From positions 4,343 through 68,342 of IMG/VR virus record IMGVR_UViG_3300047494_000104: a stretch of 64,000 nt of DNA; one strand, given 5' to 3'. Origin of the DNA: a virus. Positions 1-22,241 of this stretch are shown here, piece by piece. The notes under the pieces were generated by a model that saw only the letters and a program-made list of their open reading frames with translations, was not told the origin of the DNA and searched no databases. The position numbers and the translations under genes were made by a program. Position 1 is the first letter of the stretch; each line of letters begins with the position of its first letter.

Positions 1-139
1 ACTCGGAATATGCCAATTATAGCTACAACGGGCAGGAAAGAACGCCTGATGAGGTAGACGACACTGGGAGCGTAGGATTTTGGCATTACGGTCCTCACCG
101 CTACGAGATCCACCACGGAACGGACCGCGACATCATCCA

Positions 140-2023
140 ATGACGCTTAGCGATCTCCAATGGCGGTTGTTGTATCACAGCAATTTGCTGGTGCAGGAGT
201 CGCTTCGCCAGAGCAACGCCGCGCTGACGAGCATCCTTGAGCCCAGGGCGACCGGAGACGTCTGGCGATGGCTCGAGGCCAACACCTACCTCGACGAGAA
301 GGAGACGGCCAACCCCGGCCAGTATTCCACCAAGCTGACGCCCTACGTGCGCGAGCCGATGGACTGCTTCGGGGATAGGTCGGTCACCGATCTGACGCTC
401 TGCTGGGGCACGCAGACGAGCAAAAGTCTCACCCTTCGGGGCGGGATGGCTTACCGCATCGTCAACGATCCGTGCGCGATGCTCTGGGTGATGCCGAATA
501 CGGACTTGGCCAAGTCCTTTGCGCAAAACCGATGGATGCCCTTCGTGGACTACTGCGCGCCGCTGAAGGCCCAGAAGCCCACCGGCACCGGCGCCCGGAC
601 GCTCTACAAGCGCACGGAGCAGTCGTTTACCAAGGCTACGGTGCATTGGGCCGGGTCTAATTCGCCGGCCAACATTGCGAGCTGGCCCGCCGGTTTCCTC
701 GTGATGGATGAGGTCGACAAGTTCGCGGTGGAGACCGATGACGAGGCCGGCGCGCTTGAAAACGCCGAGGAGCGCACAAAGACGTTCCCGTACCCGCTCC
801 GGGTAAAGGCCAGCACGCCGACGACGAAGGACGGCATGATCTGGATTGAGTTCCTCATGGGGGACCAGCGCTACTACCACATGCCGTGCCCGCATTGCGC
901 GAAGGAGATCACCTTCAAACACGCGCAGTTGAAATGGTTCGACGTCGAGGAAGGCGAATCCCAGACGGATGGGGAGTGGGACATGCGGAAGGTAAAGCGG
1001 AATGCTTTCTATCGATGCCAAGAGTGCCAGGGCAAGATCCTCGATCGGCACAAGGCCGAGATGCTGGACAAGGGCCGGTGGATCGCGATGAACCCGCTAG
1101 CGGAACAGGGCCGTCGCAGCTACCACCTCAATTCCCTCTATGCCCCGTGGCGCGATTGTATGTTCGGCGCGATCGCGGTGAAGTGGATCCAGTCGATGGG
1201 CAAGCGGTCCAAGCGGCACAACTTCATCAACTCGATGCTGGCCGAGCCGTGGGACGAGTCGCGCATGTTCGACGATGCCGAGATCCCGGTGTTTCCGTAC
1301 GACGCGGATCAGATCGCGGTCGCCGGCGGCCGCGTGCCGACCATGTTTATCGACATCCAAGAGAAGGAATACTGGACGGTCATTCGGTCATGGGACCGGA
1401 CCGGGGAGAGCTATATGCTCTATGCGGGCCGGGTAGAAGACGAGGCGGACCTTGTCGCGCTGCAGGCAAAGTACCGCGTGGATGGCCGATGCGTCGCCGC
1501 GGACATGGCGCACTGGCCGAACAGGGCAGCGCAGATGATTGTGCGCAACGGGTGGCGCGGGCTATGGGGCTCCGACAAGGTGCACTTCCAGCACACGATG
1601 GAGAACGGGGACAAGGTCTACATGTACTATGGCAGGACCGAGCGGCGCGATCCGTACTTGGGCACCGTGCGCCAGTCCGAGACGAACCCGCGCGCGATCT
1701 GGAAATATTGGAGCAATCCGTCATTCAAGGACATGCTCAAGGAGCTGATGGACGAGGAGACGTCTCGGTTCCACGTTCTCTCAACGGTATGCCCGGAGTA
1801 CCCGAAGCACATGAACGCCGAGATCAAACTGTTCAAGGAAGATCGCTATGGCCGGATGGTCGGTTACTGGAAACAGATCCGCAAAGCGAATCACCTGCGC
1901 GATGGCGAGCTGGGATGCCTGGCGATCGCAATCATCAACAAGATCATTGAGGACGTGGAGATTCCGTCGCCGACGGTTCGGCCGGTTCAAGGTCGACCGG
2001 CGCAGATGCAGGCAGCGGCATAA
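140..2023 (+). CDS. terL: Terminase large subunit, lambda GpA family
   Basis: TPYVREPMD, Walker A-like WGTQTSKS, Walker B LVMDEVD, STPT, GDQRYYHMPCPHC, CxxC, SYHLNSLY, C-terminal NHLRDG. ATG at 140 preferred to the ORF-track start at 80. Confidence 0.95.
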   Translation: MTLSDLQWRLLYHSNLLVQESLRQSNAALTSILEPRATGDVWRWLEANTYLDEKETANPGQYSTKLTPYVREPMDCFGDRSVTDLTLCWGTQTSKSLTLRGGMAYRIVNDPCAMLWVMPNTDLAKSFAQNRWMPFVDYCAPLKAQKPTGTGARTLYKRTEQSFTKATVHWAGSNSPANIASWPAGFLVMDEVDKFAVETDDEAGALENAEERTKTFPYPLRVKASTPTTKDGMIWIEFLMGDQRYYHMPCPHCAKEITFKHAQLKWFDVEEGESQTDGEWDMRKVKRNAFYRCQECQGKILDRHKAEMLDKGRWIAMNPLAEQGRRSYHLNSLYAPWRDCMFGAIAVKWIQSMGKRSKRHNFINSMLAEPWDESRMFDDAEIPVFPYDADQIAVAGGRVPTMFIDIQEKEYWTVIRSWDRTGESYMLYAGRVEDEADLVALQAKYRVDGRCVAADMAHWPNRAAQMIVRNGWRGLWGSDKVHFQHTMENGDKVYMYYGRTERRDPYLGTVRQSETNPRAIWKYWSNPSFKDMLKELMDEETSRFHVLSTVCPEYPKHMNAEIKLFKEDRYGRMVGYWKQIRKANHLRDGELGCLAIAIINKIIEDVEIPSPTVRPVQGRPAQMQAAA

Positions 2024-3319: not shown

Positions 3320-3677
<358 letters not shown>

Positions 3678-5248: not shown

Positions 5249-6430
5249 TCAGTTCACGTCGATGTAGATCATCTCGCCCCACGGGATGATGCCGAATTTG
5301 TTGATCGATCCCCAGAGCACGGGATAGCCGGCAGGCTCGTCATGGGGAAATTGGCCCGCGAGGTCGGTGAGGTAGATAAGAGCGATAGGGTTGATGTCGC
5401 TCGTCTCCACGTAATCGAACACGGGCCGGAAGTCAGTGCCACCACCGCCAACCGCCTTCAGCTCGATCACGTCGCCGGCCTCGTACTCCTTCACCTTGTT
5501 GACCTCGGCGTCGCAGTATATGACGACGAGCTTTTCGGGCAAGCAATCGTCGATAATCCCCTGCATCTCGGAAGCGAAGGCTTGGAGCACCGTATCCGTG
5601 ATGGATCCCGACGTATCGATCGCGACGACGATGGGCCCCATACGCGTCCCGGTCCTGGTCGGCAAGTGAAGGCCGAGATGGATCAGTGACCGCTTGGACT
5701 TGGCAAACGAGTAGTCGTCACCGGCCGCCACGACGTTGAAGAAGTGACGGAGCTGCTCACGCCACGGCACGCGCGGGTCGACGACCTCTTCGATGAGGCG
5801 CTGGAGCATCTGCGGCAGTTTGCCGGCTTGGTTCGCGACGTTGGCCGCCTGGACGACTTTTACCTGCCAGTCGGCTTTCTCTTCCTCGATTTCTTCCGGG
5901 GTGCCTTGAGCCGGCATTACCTCGCCGGGTGACTTGAGTTCTCCCGGCTCATCACCCCCACCGTCGCCCTTACCTGGCGGCTCGACGGGCAGGAGGTTGT
6001 AAATCTCCTCGACACTGAGATTGTCGAAGGCTGGATTAGGCGGGCACCACTTGTCGAGATCGGCCAGCTCGAAGTAATCGCGAAGCTGGGCGTCGCCGTT
6101 GGCAATAGCATGAGCATTCGAGGCCCGCATGACGTTCGCCACCGCGTAGTCGCACGCCTTGTTGTACCGCTTCGGCTCCCTTCCCTCCATGCGGAAGGTG
6201 TGCTGCAGCGCGCCGTGAAGGATGCACTCGCAAATTACCGTCCGCATTTGCTTCTTGGACAGCTTGGCCGCGTGGTCCGGGTTGTACTCGATCTTCTCCC
6301 CGTCCATGCGGAAGGTGGGGATCGCCTTGTTCTCGACCGTCTTCAACGACACCAGCAACGAGCCGAAGAACGGCAGGTCGATGATGATCGTCGCGCGGGC
6401 GAATTCAATGGCTTCGTCGATTGATTTCAT
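5249..6430 (-). CDS. DUF2201-type metallopeptidase-like + vWA domain protein
   Basis: PFFGSL, YNKACDYAVA, MIDAS DTSGSI, GGGGTDFRPVF, YLTD; adjacent to MoxR. Confidence 0.88.
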   Translation of the reverse strand: MKSIDEAIEFARATIIIDLPFFGSLLVSLKTVENKAIPTFRMDGEKIEYNPDHAAKLSKKQMRTVICECILHGALQHTFRMEGREPKRYNKACDYAVANVMRASNAHAIANGDAQLRDYFELADLDKWCPPNPAFDNLSVEEIYNLLPVEPPGKGDGGGDEPGELKSPGEVMPAQGTPEEIEEEKADWQVKVVQAANVANQAGKLPQMLQRLIEEVVDPRVPWREQLRHFFNVVAAGDDYSFAKSKRSLIHLGLHLPTRTGTRMGPIVVAIDTSGSITDTVLQAFASEMQGIIDDCLPEKLVVIYCDAEVNKVKEYEAGDVIELKAVGGGGTDFRPVFDYVETSDINPIALIYLTDLAGQFPHDEPAGYPVLWGSINKFGIIPWGEMIYIDVN

Positions 6431-6590
6431 AGTTTAGCCTGTTGTTCGATTCCAATTTCGGTGAGTTCTGCGATGTCGTTTATCTCGTCGCCGAGAGGCC
6501 CAAATTTAACGAGCTCCAGACAATCCCACTCGCCTTTAATTCGAGCGCGGATTGCCTTGAGGGCTTCGATGGCCGTGAGTTGAGGTCGGT

Positions 6591-7583
6591 TCATGCGAAG
6601 AGGTGGCCGTGCTTAATCAGCCATTGGTTGAACGCCTTGCAGTTGGTCATGTCCAAGTTGCGCACCGCCATGTCCTTCACCGAGCACATCTCGAACTCGT
6701 TGGGCATCCGGCTCAGGTATTGGAACACGTTGTCCGCGTTCTTCGGCGTGACGTGCCGGGCGAGCGCCGTGGCGATGGCATACAAGGGCGCTGGATCCGT
6801 CGGCACCTTGGCCGTCATCGGCTTGGCGAGGATCTCGTCCATCGAGGGCAATTCTTGGTAGACCTTGAGGAAGCCATAGAACTCCGGCGCCGCATGAGGC
6901 CCAACGAACCCGTTCACGATCTGAAGGGACGTCTCGTTGTTGTTCTCCTTCATGTCGTGCGACAAAAACTCCCAGGTCCGAGGGCACGCAAACGGCGTGT
7001 TGTCCTTCCACTTCGCAGGATCGAAGTTCATCAGCATGCCCGGCTTGAAGCGCAGGAACGCGACGATCTCCGGAATGATGCGCCCGGTGTTGGCGCCGTA
7101 TTCCTCGAAGTCCTTCTGGCTGACCTCGAGCGTTTGCATGTTGAGGCGACTGACCAATGCGCTCGGCATTTTGTAGCTCACCGCCCGGTCGGACTGACTA
7201 TTGCCGGCCGCCATGACGCTCCATCCCGGAGGGAGCTCGTACTCGCCCAGCTTCCTGTCCAAGGTAATTTGGTACGCGGCCGCCTGCACCGCTGTCGTTG
7301 CGGCCGTGATTTCGTCGAATAAAACGATTCCCGATCCTTCCGTCGGGAAAAAGTCCGGCGTCATCCAGCGCGTCTTGCCCGTCTTCAGGTCCGGCATCGG
7401 AATGCCGCGGAGGTCGACCGGATCGAACATGTTCAGTCTCACATCTCGAAACTGAATGCCGAGCTCATCCGCGGCTTGCCGGATGATTGATGATTTGCCG
7501 ACGCCGGGCGGCGACATCACCATGAACGGCTGTTTCGATCGGTAAAAACGCTTTGCTGCTTTCTTGAGGTCTTTCGGTCCCAT
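6591..7583 (-). CDS. MoxR-like AAA+ ATPase
   Basis: SPPGVGKS, DPVDLRGIP, VLFDE, AAGN, PRTWE. Confidence 0.92.
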   Translation of the reverse strand: MGPKDLKKAAKRFYRSKQPFMVMSPPGVGKSSIIRQAADELGIQFRDVRLNMFDPVDLRGIPMPDLKTGKTRWMTPDFFPTEGSGIVLFDEITAATTAVQAAAYQITLDRKLGEYELPPGWSVMAAGNSQSDRAVSYKMPSALVSRLNMQTLEVSQKDFEEYGANTGRIIPEIVAFLRFKPGMLMNFDPAKWKDNTPFACPRTWEFLSHDMKENNNETSLQIVNGFVGPHAAPEFYGFLKVYQELPSMDEILAKPMTAKVPTDPAPLYAIATALARHVTPKNADNVFQYLSRMPNEFEMCSVKDMAVRNLDMTNCKAFNQWLIKHGHLFA

Positions 7584-7604
7584 ATGCTTCCTTTGGTTTG
7601 TTGT

Positions 7605-8048
7605 TTACTGCCTGATCACTTTGACGATGGCGGCGAGTTCCTCGAGCGCCTCGTACTTGTCTGCCCAGTCCTGGGCCTCCTGCTTCGCGCGGGTTAAAAT
7701 CTGTTTGCGGAGATTCTTATCCGCCAAGGCTCGCGTTGTACTGACGTAGGCGCGTTCCTGTGCATCATCCTCGCCGCCCAACGTCCTCGAACTGACGAAC
7801 ACGACGCTTTGAAAAGCCCTCACCGGCGCGCCTTCCTCGCGAACGATCATCACCGTTCGTATGAGTTGCCGCGCCTGCCATAGGCGATACTCGCTAGCTG
7901 CCTTGCTGTCGTCCCACTGAAAAAACCTGTGAAGCGGCGAATCGACCGGCTTCGCCTCTTTCACCACCGCTTGCGGCGTTAGGGTGCCGTCCCGTTTTTC
8001 TATCTTATCGAAATAGTTTTTGATGATTTCGTCTTTTGTTTTGCTCAT
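7605..8048 (-). CDS. Small protein directly downstream of the pentamer array (candidate accessory subunit)
   Basis: GTLTPQAVVKEAK...SPLHRFFQWDDSKAA..YRLWQARQLIR; start ATG at 8048 after AAAGGA. Confidence 0.8.
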   Translation of the reverse strand: MSKTKDEIIKNYFDKIEKRDGTLTPQAVVKEAKPVDSPLHRFFQWDDSKAASEYRLWQARQLIRTVMIVREEGAPVRAFQSVVFVSSRTLGGEDDAQERAYVSTTRALADKNLRKQILTRAKQEAQDWADKYEALEELAAIVKVIRQ

Positions 8049-8062
8049 ATTTTTGTCCTTTG

Positions 8063-8580
8063 CTGCCATTCCGTTACACTCCATTCCAACGCGGTCCTGT
8101 CCCGGAGCTTCCTTTCCTATCCAATTCTGCCCATGCGCTACAATGCTCTACGGTTCTCGACGTTACTTGCCGTTCCCTTGCTGCCCATGTTCGCCGGTCC
8201 TGTCCGTCCTGTCCCAGGCTCGACCCTCCAGTCCTATGCTGGCTTGCCGTGCCACGGCTCTCCTCGTCATTGCTCTCGCGTCCTGACCGTTCCGGTACTG
8301 CCCGTGCGTGCGATGCCATGCCTTTCCCTAGCTCTGCTCTCCAGTCCTTTACTGCCACTTCCCGACATTGCCCTCCACCCTCTCGATTCCAAGACGGTCG
8401 ATTCCAGTGCTGGCTTTCCGGGCCTTACCTTGCCGCTCACAGCGATTTCCCGCCCCGCCTCTGCTGGCATTCCTTTCCACTGATTCCGGTCCACTTCCCG
8501 CCGGTGCTGTGCTTTCCTTTACTGCCTATCCACTACACGGGTGGCCAATTCATTGCCCACCCATCCCTTTCCCGCCTTTT
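8063..8580 (-). ncRNA. Array of 9 candidate guide RNAs (5-nt period GNA/GNC-NN, each unit ending GGCAG/GCCAG); VIPR-like
   Basis: Unit ends at + strand 8063, 8127, 8181, 8239, 8298, 8352, 8410, 8464, 8522; by hand count 76 of 85 full pentamers start with G and 31 start with GGA. Confidence 0.88.
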
Positions 8581-9290
8581 CAAATTACGCGAAACATGCC
8601 CCACGAGCCGTTGCACTCGGGGCGATATTCAAAGATGCCAACGCCGAAGCCAGCGACGTTGAAGAGGTTGGTGATCTGGCCGGGCGTGATCACCCGCGAG
8701 TTGTACTCGACGAGGAACTTCACCCGCCAGGTCGGGAATTGAGCGCGAAACCGAATGTCGGACGTGCCCATGCCGACGCGGACCATGTCCGAACGCATCG
8801 AAGCGCCGTGCTTGCGCTCGAATTCGATCTCGTTCCAATACTTGGAATCTTCTTCGGTGATCGGCGTTTTGATCTCCGGCACTTCGATCTTGAGCATGTC
8901 GCCCTTGATGTGGAACGCCCGGCGCATCGCCGTCTTCTGGAGTTCGACGTCGTTCGCCGCGGTTACCGCCGCGTTCTTGAGCGACACGGCCGGAATTCCG
9001 AATCCCGATCCGTCCGGAAGACGATAGAGCGACGCCTTAAAGTCCTCCACCGGATTCCGCTTTTCGCGGCCCTTGCTGGCCTCGCCGAGCTGCTTGTCGA
9101 GCATCATCTTCTTGGCCTTTTCGCTCCAGGCGTGTACGACGAGTTGAGACGTTCCCTCGATCGTGACCTGAAAGGTAATCAGGTCAAGGCGGACGTCTTG
9201 GATTTGCAGCATCTCCGCAACGAGCTTTCCGCCTTTCGGCGTCGATCCGTTACGGGTTGCTTTGAGTTTGGGTGCTGATTTGACTGGCAT
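8580..9290 (-). CDS. Stand-alone Cas7/RAMP-like protein (Vipr-like)
   Basis: N-terminal strand VTIEGTSQLVVH, IPAVSLKNA (cf. RAMP IPGSSLKG), C-terminal G-rich loop AGFGVGIFEYRPECNGSWGMF; abuts the array. Confidence 0.8.
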   Translation of the reverse strand: MPVKSAPKLKATRNGSTPKGGKLVAEMLQIQDVRLDLITFQVTIEGTSQLVVHAWSEKAKKMMLDKQLGEASKGREKRNPVEDFKASLYRLPDGSGFGIPAVSLKNAAVTAANDVELQKTAMRRAFHIKGDMLKIEVPEIKTPITEEDSKYWNEIEFERKHGASMRSDMVRVGMGTSDIRFRAQFPTWRVKFLVEYNSRVITPGQITNLFNVAGFGVGIFEYRPECNGSWGMFRVI

Positions 9291-9792
9291 GTTGTTCCTT
9301 TGGTTCTTTGTTAATCACGAATTCGACGAACATCGTCAGCGTCGTGAGCGCGAAGGCGATGCCTAAAGTGTAGATAATGGTGGCGACGAAGCGGTCGGCT
9401 CGATCGTGCGCGCAGAGGTTGGGTTTCTTCATAAAAGTTGGAGTTCGCCGCATGCAATCCGCGCGCGCTGGAGAAGTCGATTGCCGATCGAGTCGACGAC
9501 CTTGGGGCAATAGGTCGGAAGCATCGAGGACGTACAGAGCCGCCAATACGCTCCGACGCGGGTGAAGCATTCGTACTCCAGCTTGCCGTCATCGTCTCGG
9601 AAAGCCTCTGCCCTGAACCACACGCTATCGATCTCGAATTCCTCGCTCGAAATGATGCCGAGGTTCATGCCATTGGCATATTGGAGCTTGGCTTTGCTCA
9701 CTCGCGCCCCCTCGACGAGGGCGCGAGTCCGAGCCATTGCAAGCCGCGCGCATCCAAGCGATTCCCTGCCGAGGGATGCCATTGAGCGGACG

Positions 9793-22169: not shown

Positions 22170-22241
22170 GGCGCGAAGGACAAACGGTAAGTCACCGGGC
22201 CCATAACCCGGAAATAGTAGGTTCAACTCCTGCTCCCGCTA
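22170..22241 (+). tRNA. tRNA-Met(CAT), initiator-like, no encoded CCA
   Basis: D arm GAC/GTC, anticodon stem CCGGG/CCCGG around CC-CAT-AA, T arm GTAGG-TTCAACT-CCTGC, acceptor GGCGCGA/TCCCGCT. Confidence 0.85.

What the first reader, a model, noticed from the sequence alone, without database searches (positions are those of the whole stretch)
8410..8463. Guide 3 spells the patatin motif DGGIWANNP
SEEN: CAGA GGCGG GGCGG GAAAT CGCTG TGAGC GGCAA GGTAA GGCCC GGAAA GCCAG gives GA GG GG AT TG GC AA AA CC AA = D/E G G I/M C/W A K/N K/N P K/N. KNOWLEDGE: DGGxxANNP holds the catalytic Asp of patatin phospholipases, including the CBASS effector CapV. INFERENCE: the guide targets the most conserved part of a defence effector gene.
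Basis: partly seen in the sequence, partly recalled or inferred. Interest (0 to 1): 0.92.

Follow-up and report, generated by a model that had tools for sequence, protein, structure and literature searches.

The report
Phage VIPR guide aimed at CapV
One guide RNA in this phage's VIPR array (a CRISPR-like DNA silencer described in 2026) spells the codons of the catalytic aspartate motif of CapV, the killer phospholipase of bacterial CBASS immunity, so the phage may use RNA guidance to switch off a defence gene, though this is untested.

Summary
Window 8410-8463 (minus strand) is one roughly 54-nt unit of a noncoding array of pentamers. The array lies between a Vipr RAMP gene (8580-9290) and a small conserved partner gene (7605-8084).

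The system is already known as VIPR (bioRxiv 10.64898/2026.04.26.720920). In VIPR, the two variable bases of each pentamer pair with DNA and skip every third base, which is the codon wobble position.

Read that way, guide 3 gives GAnGGnGGnATnTGnGCnAAnAAnCC.
- At least 126 of the 128 are in-frame DGG[IM]WANNP in patatin genes.
- Control patterns found nothing: 0 hits in IMG/VR and 0 of 401 genomes.
- All 10 sampled targets match PADLOC CBASS phospholipase models, and 8 of 10 pass the NCBIfam CBASS-lipase cutoff.
- 48 of 71 loci have a CD-NTase gene next to the target.

The tenth dinucleotide matches in none of the 128 hits, so the best match is 9 of 10.

Guide 7 of the same array spells the Cap3 JAB motif. 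Both guides hit one type II CBASS operon in two loci. Guide 4 found no support.

The VIPR preprints I searched do not mention CBASS. This scan earlier flagged a capV-directed VIPR guide in another phage. Expression, binding and the host remain untested.

The parts
8580..9290 (-). vipr gene (236 aa), the RAMP protein of the VIPR system
   Evidence: A profile of 46 family members matches PDB 36pp_D 'SUSP1 Vipr protein' at E=1.3e-8, covering profile 14-193 and chain 3-181. The AF2 model has pLDDT 80.3. Its best Foldseek PDB matches are Csm3/Cas7-type RAMPs at E about 1e-5. It also matches phrog_4652.
8063..8576 (-). vrRNA array of about 100 pentamers (scaffold triplet plus NN), punctuated by 4-nt units every 54-64 nt (staggered-array architecture)
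   Evidence: Anchors lie at minus coordinates 8526, 8468, 8414, 8356, 8302, 8243, 8185, 8131 and 8067. A comparable array lies downstream of the vipr homologue in 70 of 80 related loci.
8410..8468 (-). guide 3 with its two flanking 4-nt junctions: 11 scaffold triplets and 10 NN dinucleotides
8420..8461 (-). NN1-NN9 of guide 3 (GA GG GG AT TG GC AA AA CC), the stretch that matches capV codons for D-G-G-I/M-W-A-N-N-P
8415..8416 (-). NN10 (AA), unmatched in every capV hit
   Evidence: Matched in 0 of 128 hits. The 10/10 pattern found only 2 identical non-patatin metagenome hits.
8181..8238 (-). guide 7, which spells the Cap3 JAB motif YLG[DE]WHxHP when its internal 4-nt unit is read as one codon
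   Evidence: 31 IMG/VR hits, 27 of them in-frame JAB. All 10 of 10 sampled match PADLOC CBASS JAB models.
7605..8084 (-). small conserved partner gene (159 aa, or 147 aa from the ATG at 8048); candidate vap
   Evidence: It matches phrog_15946. It is 35% identical (E=2e-25) to the small gene that follows vipr in L055. It has no Pfam hit and no significant PDB sequence hit.

Best explanation
Window 8410-8468 (minus strand) encodes one vrRNA of a phage VIPR system. The array between vipr and the small partner gene is transcribed and cut at the 4-nt junctions. About eleven Vipr protomers coat the RNA, each holding one scaffold triplet, and they display the ten variable dinucleotides. The filament pairs those dinucleotides with double-stranded DNA while skipping every third base. 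For guide 3 the complementary site is the stretch of capV that encodes DGG(I/M)WANNP, the aspartate half of the patatin catalytic dyad. The skipped bases fall on the wobble positions, so synonymous changes cannot help the target escape and non-synonymous escape would damage the enzyme. Binding blocks transcription of capV, and also of the genes behind it where capV comes first in the operon. Together with guide 7, which matches cap3, the phage would lower expression of a type II CBASS operon in its host or in a resident mobile element.

Shown here: the locus is a VIPR system, the guide has this anatomy, and it matches CBASS capV genes specifically and in frame. Taken from the preprints for other VIPR types: filament assembly, the skip rule and transcriptional silencing. 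Inferred: this vrRNA is made, it binds capV, and that helps the phage.
For: VIPR membership:
- The Vipr family profile matches the solved SUSP1 Vipr at E=1.3e-8, and the model has a RAMP fold.
- A pentamer array lies downstream of the vipr homologue in 70 of 80 related loci. Family positions 1-3 are G 95%, G 87% and C/T 89%, and positions 4-5 carry about 0.05 bits.
- The partner gene is conserved.

Published rule: the 1-nt skip rule, wobble alignment and a threshold of at least 80% NN match come from 10.64898/2026.04.26.720920. Staggered arrays that overlap by 1 nt are described in the fig. S18 legend.

Target:
- 8 of 8 IMG/VR hits and at least 118 of 120 genome hits are in-frame DGG[IM]WANNP patatin genes.
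- Control patterns gave 0 hits in IMG/VR and 0 of 401 genomes.
- A mis-spaced 16-base pattern gave 15 hits in no coherent family.
- CapV identity rests. A CD-NTase neighbour is present in 48 of 71 loci.
- The skipped positions vary among the hits, with all four bases seen at fourfold sites.
- No self-target exists in the 68-kb record at up to 2 mismatches.

Second guide: guide 7 matches Cap3 JAB. Both guides hit one operon in L102 and in L248.

Precedent: a SUSP1 guide covers active-site codons of a satellite recombinase (10.64898/2026.10.15.759431, passages seen).
Against: - The best match is 9 of 10 NN. The tenth is unmatched in 0 of 128 hits, and no capV gene matches 10/10 in the metagenome collection.
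- Three consecutive scaffold triplets inside guide 3 lack GG, and the preprint reports that perturbing GGY abolished silencing.
- The window's scaffold differs from GGY: G 90%, G 53%, A/C 93%. The skip rule was tested only for other VIPR types.
- The host is unknown. The nearest named TerL relatives are about 50% identical.
- No integrase or serine recombinase was found in the record, which is 77% complete. A lysogenic route to long-term silencing is therefore unsupported. Repressing transcription would not remove CapV protein already present at the start of a lytic infection.
- Among 339 unique guides from the window's array and 70 related arrays, only this one hits the CBASS loci above the shuffle level: 5 guides with a hit against 3 shuffled guides. 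Aiming at CBASS is not a family-wide habit in this sample.
- Guides 3 and 7 fall in the same operon in only 2 of the loci examined.
- Guide 4 finds no CBASS target.
Confidence: 0.6

Rival explanations
1. The molecular target is the same but the purpose differs. The capV genes being hit sit on rival prophages, satellites or other mobile elements, and the guide belongs to the inter-element warfare already described for VIPR rather than to an attack on host immunity.
For: The preprints report natural targets on satellites, prophage regulators and other VIPR systems. Eight IMG/VR viral contigs carry a capV gene with the site. L248, a viral contig, holds a whole type II CBASS operon.
Against: Silencing a cargo defence gene would not stop a rival from replicating. 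Most hits (120 or more) are in species genomes, and I did not test whether those sites lie in mobile elements. The two readings are not exclusive.
Confidence: 0.22
2. Guide 3 is a decaying or inactive relic. It once matched capV, but its eroded scaffold and mismatched end mean it no longer forms a working filament.
For: Three central scaffold triplets lack GG. NN10 is unmatched in all 128 hits. The window's array is less regular than its relatives, with position-2 G at 53% against 87%.
Against: Nine consecutive NN remain perfect, including those flanked by the odd triplets. Neutral decay would not spare them. The preprint notes frequent internal degeneracy in vrRNAs. The whole array shares the altered scaffold, which suggests a clade-specific scaffold preference.
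Confidence: 0.1
3. The resemblance is chance. With nine guides, two orientations and ambiguous amino-acid readings, some motif was bound to turn up.
For: Guide 4's proposed motif found no support.
Against: - The 18 specified bases are fixed, and the pattern returns one gene family in frame in at least 126 of 128 hits.
- The reversed control returns 0 hits.
- Shifting to NN2-NN10 returns 0 hits.
- A second guide independently spells another CBASS gene.
Confidence: 0.02

Closest known systems
VIPR systems (Vipr + vap + vrRNA); reference type II systems of Escherichia phage SUSP1 and a Pseudomonas fulva prophage (bioRxiv 10.64898/2026.04.26.720920; structure paper 10.64898/2026.04.26.720927)
   Same: A RAMP protein homologous to SUSP1 Vipr. 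Pentamer repeats with a fixed triplet and two variable bases. About 10 repeats per guide. Targets read with a 1-nt skip aligned to the wobble position. Phage-borne. A small accessory gene alongside.
   Different: The scaffold is G-(G/C/T)-(A/C) rather than GGY. No separate structured 3' tail is visible, and guides abut at 4-nt junctions. The gene order is vipr-array-partner. The inferred target is a CBASS immune gene. That target class appears 0 times in the main texts of the four preprints I searched, and no held paper contains both 'vrRNA' and 'CBASS'.
Staggered vrRNA arrays (fig. S18 of 10.64898/2026.04.26.720920; legend only seen)
   Same: A continuous pentamer array in which neighbouring vrRNAs share one nucleotide. 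Here this appears as a 4-nt unit, G(G/C)C-A, every 54-64 nt.
   Different: The figure itself and the VIPR type it belongs to could not be seen. Two of the window's units (guides 4 and 7) hold an extra internal 4-nt unit.
Active-site-directed, wobble-aligned vrRNA guides against a satellite recombinase (10.64898/2026.10.15.759431; passages seen)
   Same: The guide footprint covers codons of a catalytic core, so escape mutations would cost the enzyme its function.
   Different: That target is a rival satellite's recombinase, not a defence effector.
Protein inhibitors of CBASS such as Acb1 and Acb2 (recalled, no call)
   Same: The outcome would be the same: a phage counter-measure against CBASS.
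   Different: Those proteins degrade or sequester the cyclic-nucleotide signal. Here the proposed mechanism is RNA-guided repression of the effector gene.
CapV-directed VIPR guide noted earlier by this scan on another phage (e1-5853734, e1-5853715)
   Same: A VIPR guide whose NN string spells a catalytic motif of the CBASS patatin lipase.
   Different: That guide spells the serine motif (GTSTGGIIA) on other DNA. I did not re-test it.

Membership tests
VIPR system | A Vipr protein (minimal RAMP) encoded beside the array | tested here: met
   The family profile matches PDB 36pp_D SUSP1 Vipr at E=1.3e-8 over nearly the full length. The Foldseek top matches are Csm3/Cas7 RAMPs.
VIPR system | vrRNA made of tandem pentamers with a conserved GGY triplet and hypervariable NN | tested here: met
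   Related arrays show G 95%, G 87%, C/T 89% and NN at about 0.05 bits. The window shows a variant scaffold of G 90%, G 53% and A/C 93%. The preprints allow related consensus motifs.
VIPR system | 9-16 repeats per vrRNA | tested here: met
   Guide 3 has 10 NN between 11 scaffold triplets. Related guides hold mostly 8-13 NN.
VIPR system | Targets follow the 1-nt skip rule, with the skipped base at the codon wobble position | tested here: met
   At least 126 of 128 exact matches are in frame, and the skipped base falls on codon position 3. The same holds for guide 7, with 27 of 31 in frame.
VIPR system | An accessory vap gene | tested here: inconclusive
   A small conserved neighbour gene exists (35% identity to the L055 gene; phrog_15946). 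It has no Pfam hit and no significant PDB sequence hit. I could not compare it with vap1-6.
VIPR system | The vrRNA is expressed, processed and bound by Vipr, and silences its target | not testable with these tools
   No RNA run holds the locus.
CBASS CapV phospholipase (the target gene family) | Matches the curated CBASS lipase model | tested here: met
   I sampled 10 of the 88 hits fetched by then. Of those, 8 of 10 exceed the NF041079 cutoff of 200 bits; the other two scored 186 and 135 bits, one of them on a short ORF call. All 10 of 10 match PADLOC PDLC00757/758.
CBASS CapV phospholipase (the target gene family) | Encoded next to a CD-NTase | tested here: met
   45 of 100 neighbouring ORFs match PADLOC cyclase models. 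48 of 71 loci have a cyclase neighbour by local jackhmmer, 26 upstream and 22 downstream. Full type II operons are present in L102 and L248.

The most novel reading that the evidence does not exclude
Some phages load their VIPR arrays with guides against host immune operons. This array would carry at least two such guides, against capV and cap3 of type II CBASS. Each is aimed at catalytic-site codons with the wobble base skipped. VIPR would then work as a programmable, RNA-guided anti-defence system and not only as a weapon between mobile elements. Together with the capV serine-motif guide that this scan noted in an unrelated phage, CBASS silencing would be a recurrent use of VIPR.
Probability: 0.45. 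Interest if true: 0.85.

Novelty: new variant of a known kind. Interest (0 to 1): 0.7.

Why it matters
VIPR was described in 2026 as a phage tool for silencing rival elements. A guide that matches the catalytic codons of the CBASS effector, beside another that matches Cap3, points to a different use: RNA-guided repression of a bacterial immune operon. Known anti-CBASS factors are proteins that act on the signal molecule (recalled). A guide-based route would be reprogrammable and hard to escape, because the skipped bases are the only freely mutable ones. The idea can be tested directly with a reporter carrying a 27-30-bp site and with a laboratory CBASS defence assay. It also suggests mining all VIPR arrays for guides against defence genes. 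That could help in reading phage-host relations from sequence, although motif-level guides are too widely matched to name a host.

Tried and rejected
Early ideas, before the literature search: an array binding a TRAP-like 11-mer ring RNA protein, DNA iterons or a centromere, G-quadruplex repeats, and a CsrA sponge. I dropped these once the Vipr homology and the VIPR preprints explained the 5-nt period and the 4-nt junctions.

Rfam at gathering threshold found nothing in the array. blastn against the phage collection found no match.

Guide 4 as a Cap2/E1 motif: the 16-base pattern gave 5 IMG/VR hits, none E1-like. The best match inside the Cap2 genes of L102 and L248 was 13-14 of 22 bases, which is background.

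Other guides (2, 5, 6, 8, 9) against 119 CBASS loci gave nothing above shuffles.

A perfect 10/10 target: the metagenome scan gave 2 hits with the same sequence, reading DGGICAKNPN, not patatin. NN2-NN10 in IMG/VR gave 0 hits.

My first guide 7 pattern was mis-spaced by one N. Its 15 incoherent hits serve only as a chance control.

Host: the genome search draws no relatives for a virus record (error). TerL homologues name only Verrucomicrobiota and Chthoniobacter MAGs at about 50% identity, which is too weak to call a host.

Expression: no RNA holder was listed for window 7600-9300.

I scanned 339 guides from the window and 70 related arrays for CBASS targets. Only the window's guide 3 stood out.

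Supplementary tables of the VIPR preprints (natural target lists, the 664 loci) were closed and may bear on whether a capV target or this clade is already listed there.

Full report
**What is there.** It lies in a gap of about 520 nt without a credible gene, between two minus-strand genes: 8580-9290 (236 aa) and 7605-8084 (159 aa).

On the minus strand the gap is purine-rich. It is built from pentamers with G at a fixed position, and a short anchor recurs every 54-64 nt at 8526, 8468, 8414, 8356, 8302, 8243, 8185, 8131 and 8067. A dynamic-programming parse shows runs of 5-nt units broken almost only by 4-nt units.

The window is a phage. It has a gpA-type large terminase, a MoxR-like ATPase, a DUF2201 protein, a DUF3150-like protein and a sliding clamp. 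The record is an IMG/VR virus contig of 68,342 bases, estimated 77% complete.

**The array is a family feature.** The 236-aa protein has 252 confirmed relatives in IMG/VR. I kept the best 80 loci. In nearly all of them the strongest period-5 G signal lies just downstream of the homologue. In 70 of the 80, the parse finds an array of about 100 to 1126 nt.

Across those arrays the pentamer is G (95%), G (87%), C/T (89%), then two positions with about 0.05 bits of information. The window's own scaffold differs. In its three plain 54-nt units it is G 90%, G 53%, A/C 93%, and the last two positions are again nearly uninformative.

[quoted passage not shown] I read its Results, its Discussion and two Methods sections. 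It reports the following:
- VIPR consists of a minimal RAMP protein (Vipr), an accessory vap gene and vrRNAs of 9-16 YNNGG repeats.
- The NN dinucleotides pair with double-stranded DNA while one target base is skipped per repeat.
- The skipped base usually falls on the codon wobble position, and either strand can be targeted.
- Binding represses transcription.
- Natural targets were satellites, prophage regulators and other VIPR systems. A match of at least 80% of NN was used as the criterion.
- A figure legend describes staggered arrays whose vrRNAs overlap by one nucleotide. That fits the 4-nt junctions seen here.

The abstract of the companion structure preprint (10.64898/2026.04.26.720927) describes Vipr protomers forming a helical filament on the vrRNA. 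The filament sequesters each GGY and presents the NN.

**Membership tested here.**
- A profile of 46 family members matches the solved 'SUSP1 Vipr protein' (PDB 36pp_D) at E=1.3e-8 over nearly its whole length.
- An AlphaFold2 model (pLDDT 80.3) finds Csm3/Cas7-type RAMPs as its best PDB matches.
- The small neighbouring gene is conserved. It is 35% identical (E=2e-25) to the gene that follows vipr in L055. It has no Pfam hit and no significant PDB sequence hit, so calling it a vap is provisional.

**The guide and its target.** In scaffold/NN register, guide 3 has 11 scaffold triplets and 10 dinucleotides: GA GG GG AT TG GC AA AA CC AA.

It gave 8 exact matches in IMG/VR, all in-frame DGGIWANNP within patatin genes that also carry the upstream A-T-S-A-A-P-T-Y-F block.

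Over all 128 matches:
- 123 pass a crude patatin-context filter.
- Three more (L124, L189, L203) are patatin by their flanks.
- Two (L116, L155) are out-of-frame chance hits.
- The peptides are DGGIWANNP in 111 hits (73 + 38) and DGGMWANNP in 11, with a few C or TGA variants.
- The skipped bases vary freely among hits, with all four bases at fourfold sites.

**Controls.**
- The pattern read backwards gave 0 IMG/VR hits.
- NN2-NN10 gave 0 hits.
- A mis-spaced 16-base pattern gave 15 hits in no coherent family.
- In an even sample of one phylum, 4 of 401 genomes have the site, against 0 of 401 for the reversed control. One of the four is the centre genome, which I chose because it has the site.

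**The targets are CBASS effectors.** I sampled 10 of the 88 hits fetched by then.
- All ten match PADLOC's CBASS phospholipase effector models.
- Eight exceed the NCBIfam cutoff for 'CBASS cGAMP-activated phospholipase'.
- Of 100 same-strand neighbouring ORFs, 45 match PADLOC oligonucleotide-cyclase models.
- A local iterative search places a cyclase next to capV in 48 of the 71 loci that had a neighbour to test, 26 upstream and 22 downstream.

**Limits of the match.**
- The tenth dinucleotide is matched in none of the 128 hits. The residue after the motif is V, S, I, A or T.
- A 10/10 pattern found only two copies of one non-patatin sequence in the metagenome collection. The best natural match is therefore 9 of 10 NN. 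That is above the preprint's 80% criterion but not perfect.
- Three central scaffold triplets of the guide lack GG.

**Convergence with other guides.** Guide 7 holds an internal 4-nt unit. Read as one codon at that point, its pattern gave 31 IMG/VR hits, and 27 of them are in-frame YLG[DE]WH[TSY]HP. All ten sampled proteins match PADLOC CBASS JAB (Cap3) models.

In L102, PADLOC identifies capV, cyclase, E1-E2 and JAB in one operon. There guide 3 matches 18 of 20 bases and guide 7 matches 17 of 20. In L248 the figures are 16 of 20 and 19 of 20. All other guides stay at background.

I searched 50 whole genomes that hold a guide 3 site, chosen from the 80 listed loci. Ten have a guide 7 match at up to one mismatch. 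That makes 12 matches, against 3 for the control pattern. Only L102 shows both guides in one fetched operon at high match.

Guide 4 gave 5 incoherent hits. Among 339 unique guides parsed from the window's array and 70 related arrays, only this window's guide 3 hits the CBASS loci beyond shuffle level.

**How it most likely works, and what is inferred.** By analogy with the characterised systems, the array is transcribed with its flanking minus-strand genes and cut at the junctions. Each guide is then coated by about eleven Vipr protomers. Guide 3 has the sense of the capV coding strand, so it would pair with the template strand. It would block transcription in the middle of capV, and of downstream genes where capV comes first. 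None of this was tested here.

Points that count against a simple anti-defence story:
- No RNA run holds the locus.
- The host is unknown.
- No integrase or serine recombinase was found in the incomplete record.
- Repressing transcription would not remove CapV made before infection.

The same evidence fits capV genes carried by rival mobile elements, since eight hits are on viral contigs.

**Novelty.** The system itself is already described. The target class is what appears new. 'CBASS' and 'patatin' occur 0 times in the main texts of the four preprints I searched. No held paper contains both 'vrRNA' and 'CBASS'.

This scan had already noted related findings:
- On another phage, a VIPR guide spells the capV serine motif (e1-5853734, e1-5853715). 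I did not re-test that.
- On this window, guide 7 matches Cap3 (e1-6179139). I confirmed that independently.

A precedent for guides aimed at active-site codons exists for a satellite recombinase (10.64898/2026.10.15.759431, passages seen).

**Verdict.** This is a new member of the VIPR kind with a variant scaffold, and it carries a guide for a target class not reported in print. The functional claim remains a prediction.

Noticed in passing
window 22170-22241 (+): Rfam calls a tRNA here (49.1 bits), but ARAGORN found no tRNA anywhere in the window.
   Followed up: no
window 3439-3651: A tandem array with a 6-nt/36-nt period (GCCGGA-like, about 35 copies) lies inside overlapping ORFs. It is probably a Gly/Ala/Pro-rich coding repeat.
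   Followed up: no
window 5249-7583 (-): A MoxR-like AAA ATPase (phrog_1297) and a DUF2201 metallopeptidase/VWA protein sit directly downstream of the VIPR locus on the same strand. Any link to VIPR is unknown.
   Followed up: no
L004 4570-5600, L055 4585-5345, against window 7605-9290: In the relatives the order is vipr, small gene, array. In the window it is vipr, array, small gene. Array length across the family ranges from about 100 nt to 1126 nt in L070.
   Followed up: partly
window 8063-8576 (-): The window's scaffold triplet is mostly GGA, GCA or GTA (third base A or C in 93%), whereas 70 related arrays use GGY. This may reflect a clade-specific scaffold preference of this Vipr.
   Followed up: partly
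window 8352-8409 (-): Guide 4's proposed E1 motif pattern gave only 5 incoherent IMG/VR hits and no match in Cap2 genes. Its target remains unknown.
   Followed up: partly
L248 6753-11550: This viral contig carries a full type II CBASS. The capV (PADLOC PDLC00755 type, motif DGGYCANNPA) is divergently oriented from cyclase-E1E2-JAB.
   Followed up: partly
window 80-2023 (+): The nearest named TerL relatives (about 50% identity) are in Verrucomicrobiota and Chthoniobacter MAG contigs of 129 and 205 kb. One unnamed metagenome contig of 70.7 kb holds an 89% identical TerL.
   Followed up: no
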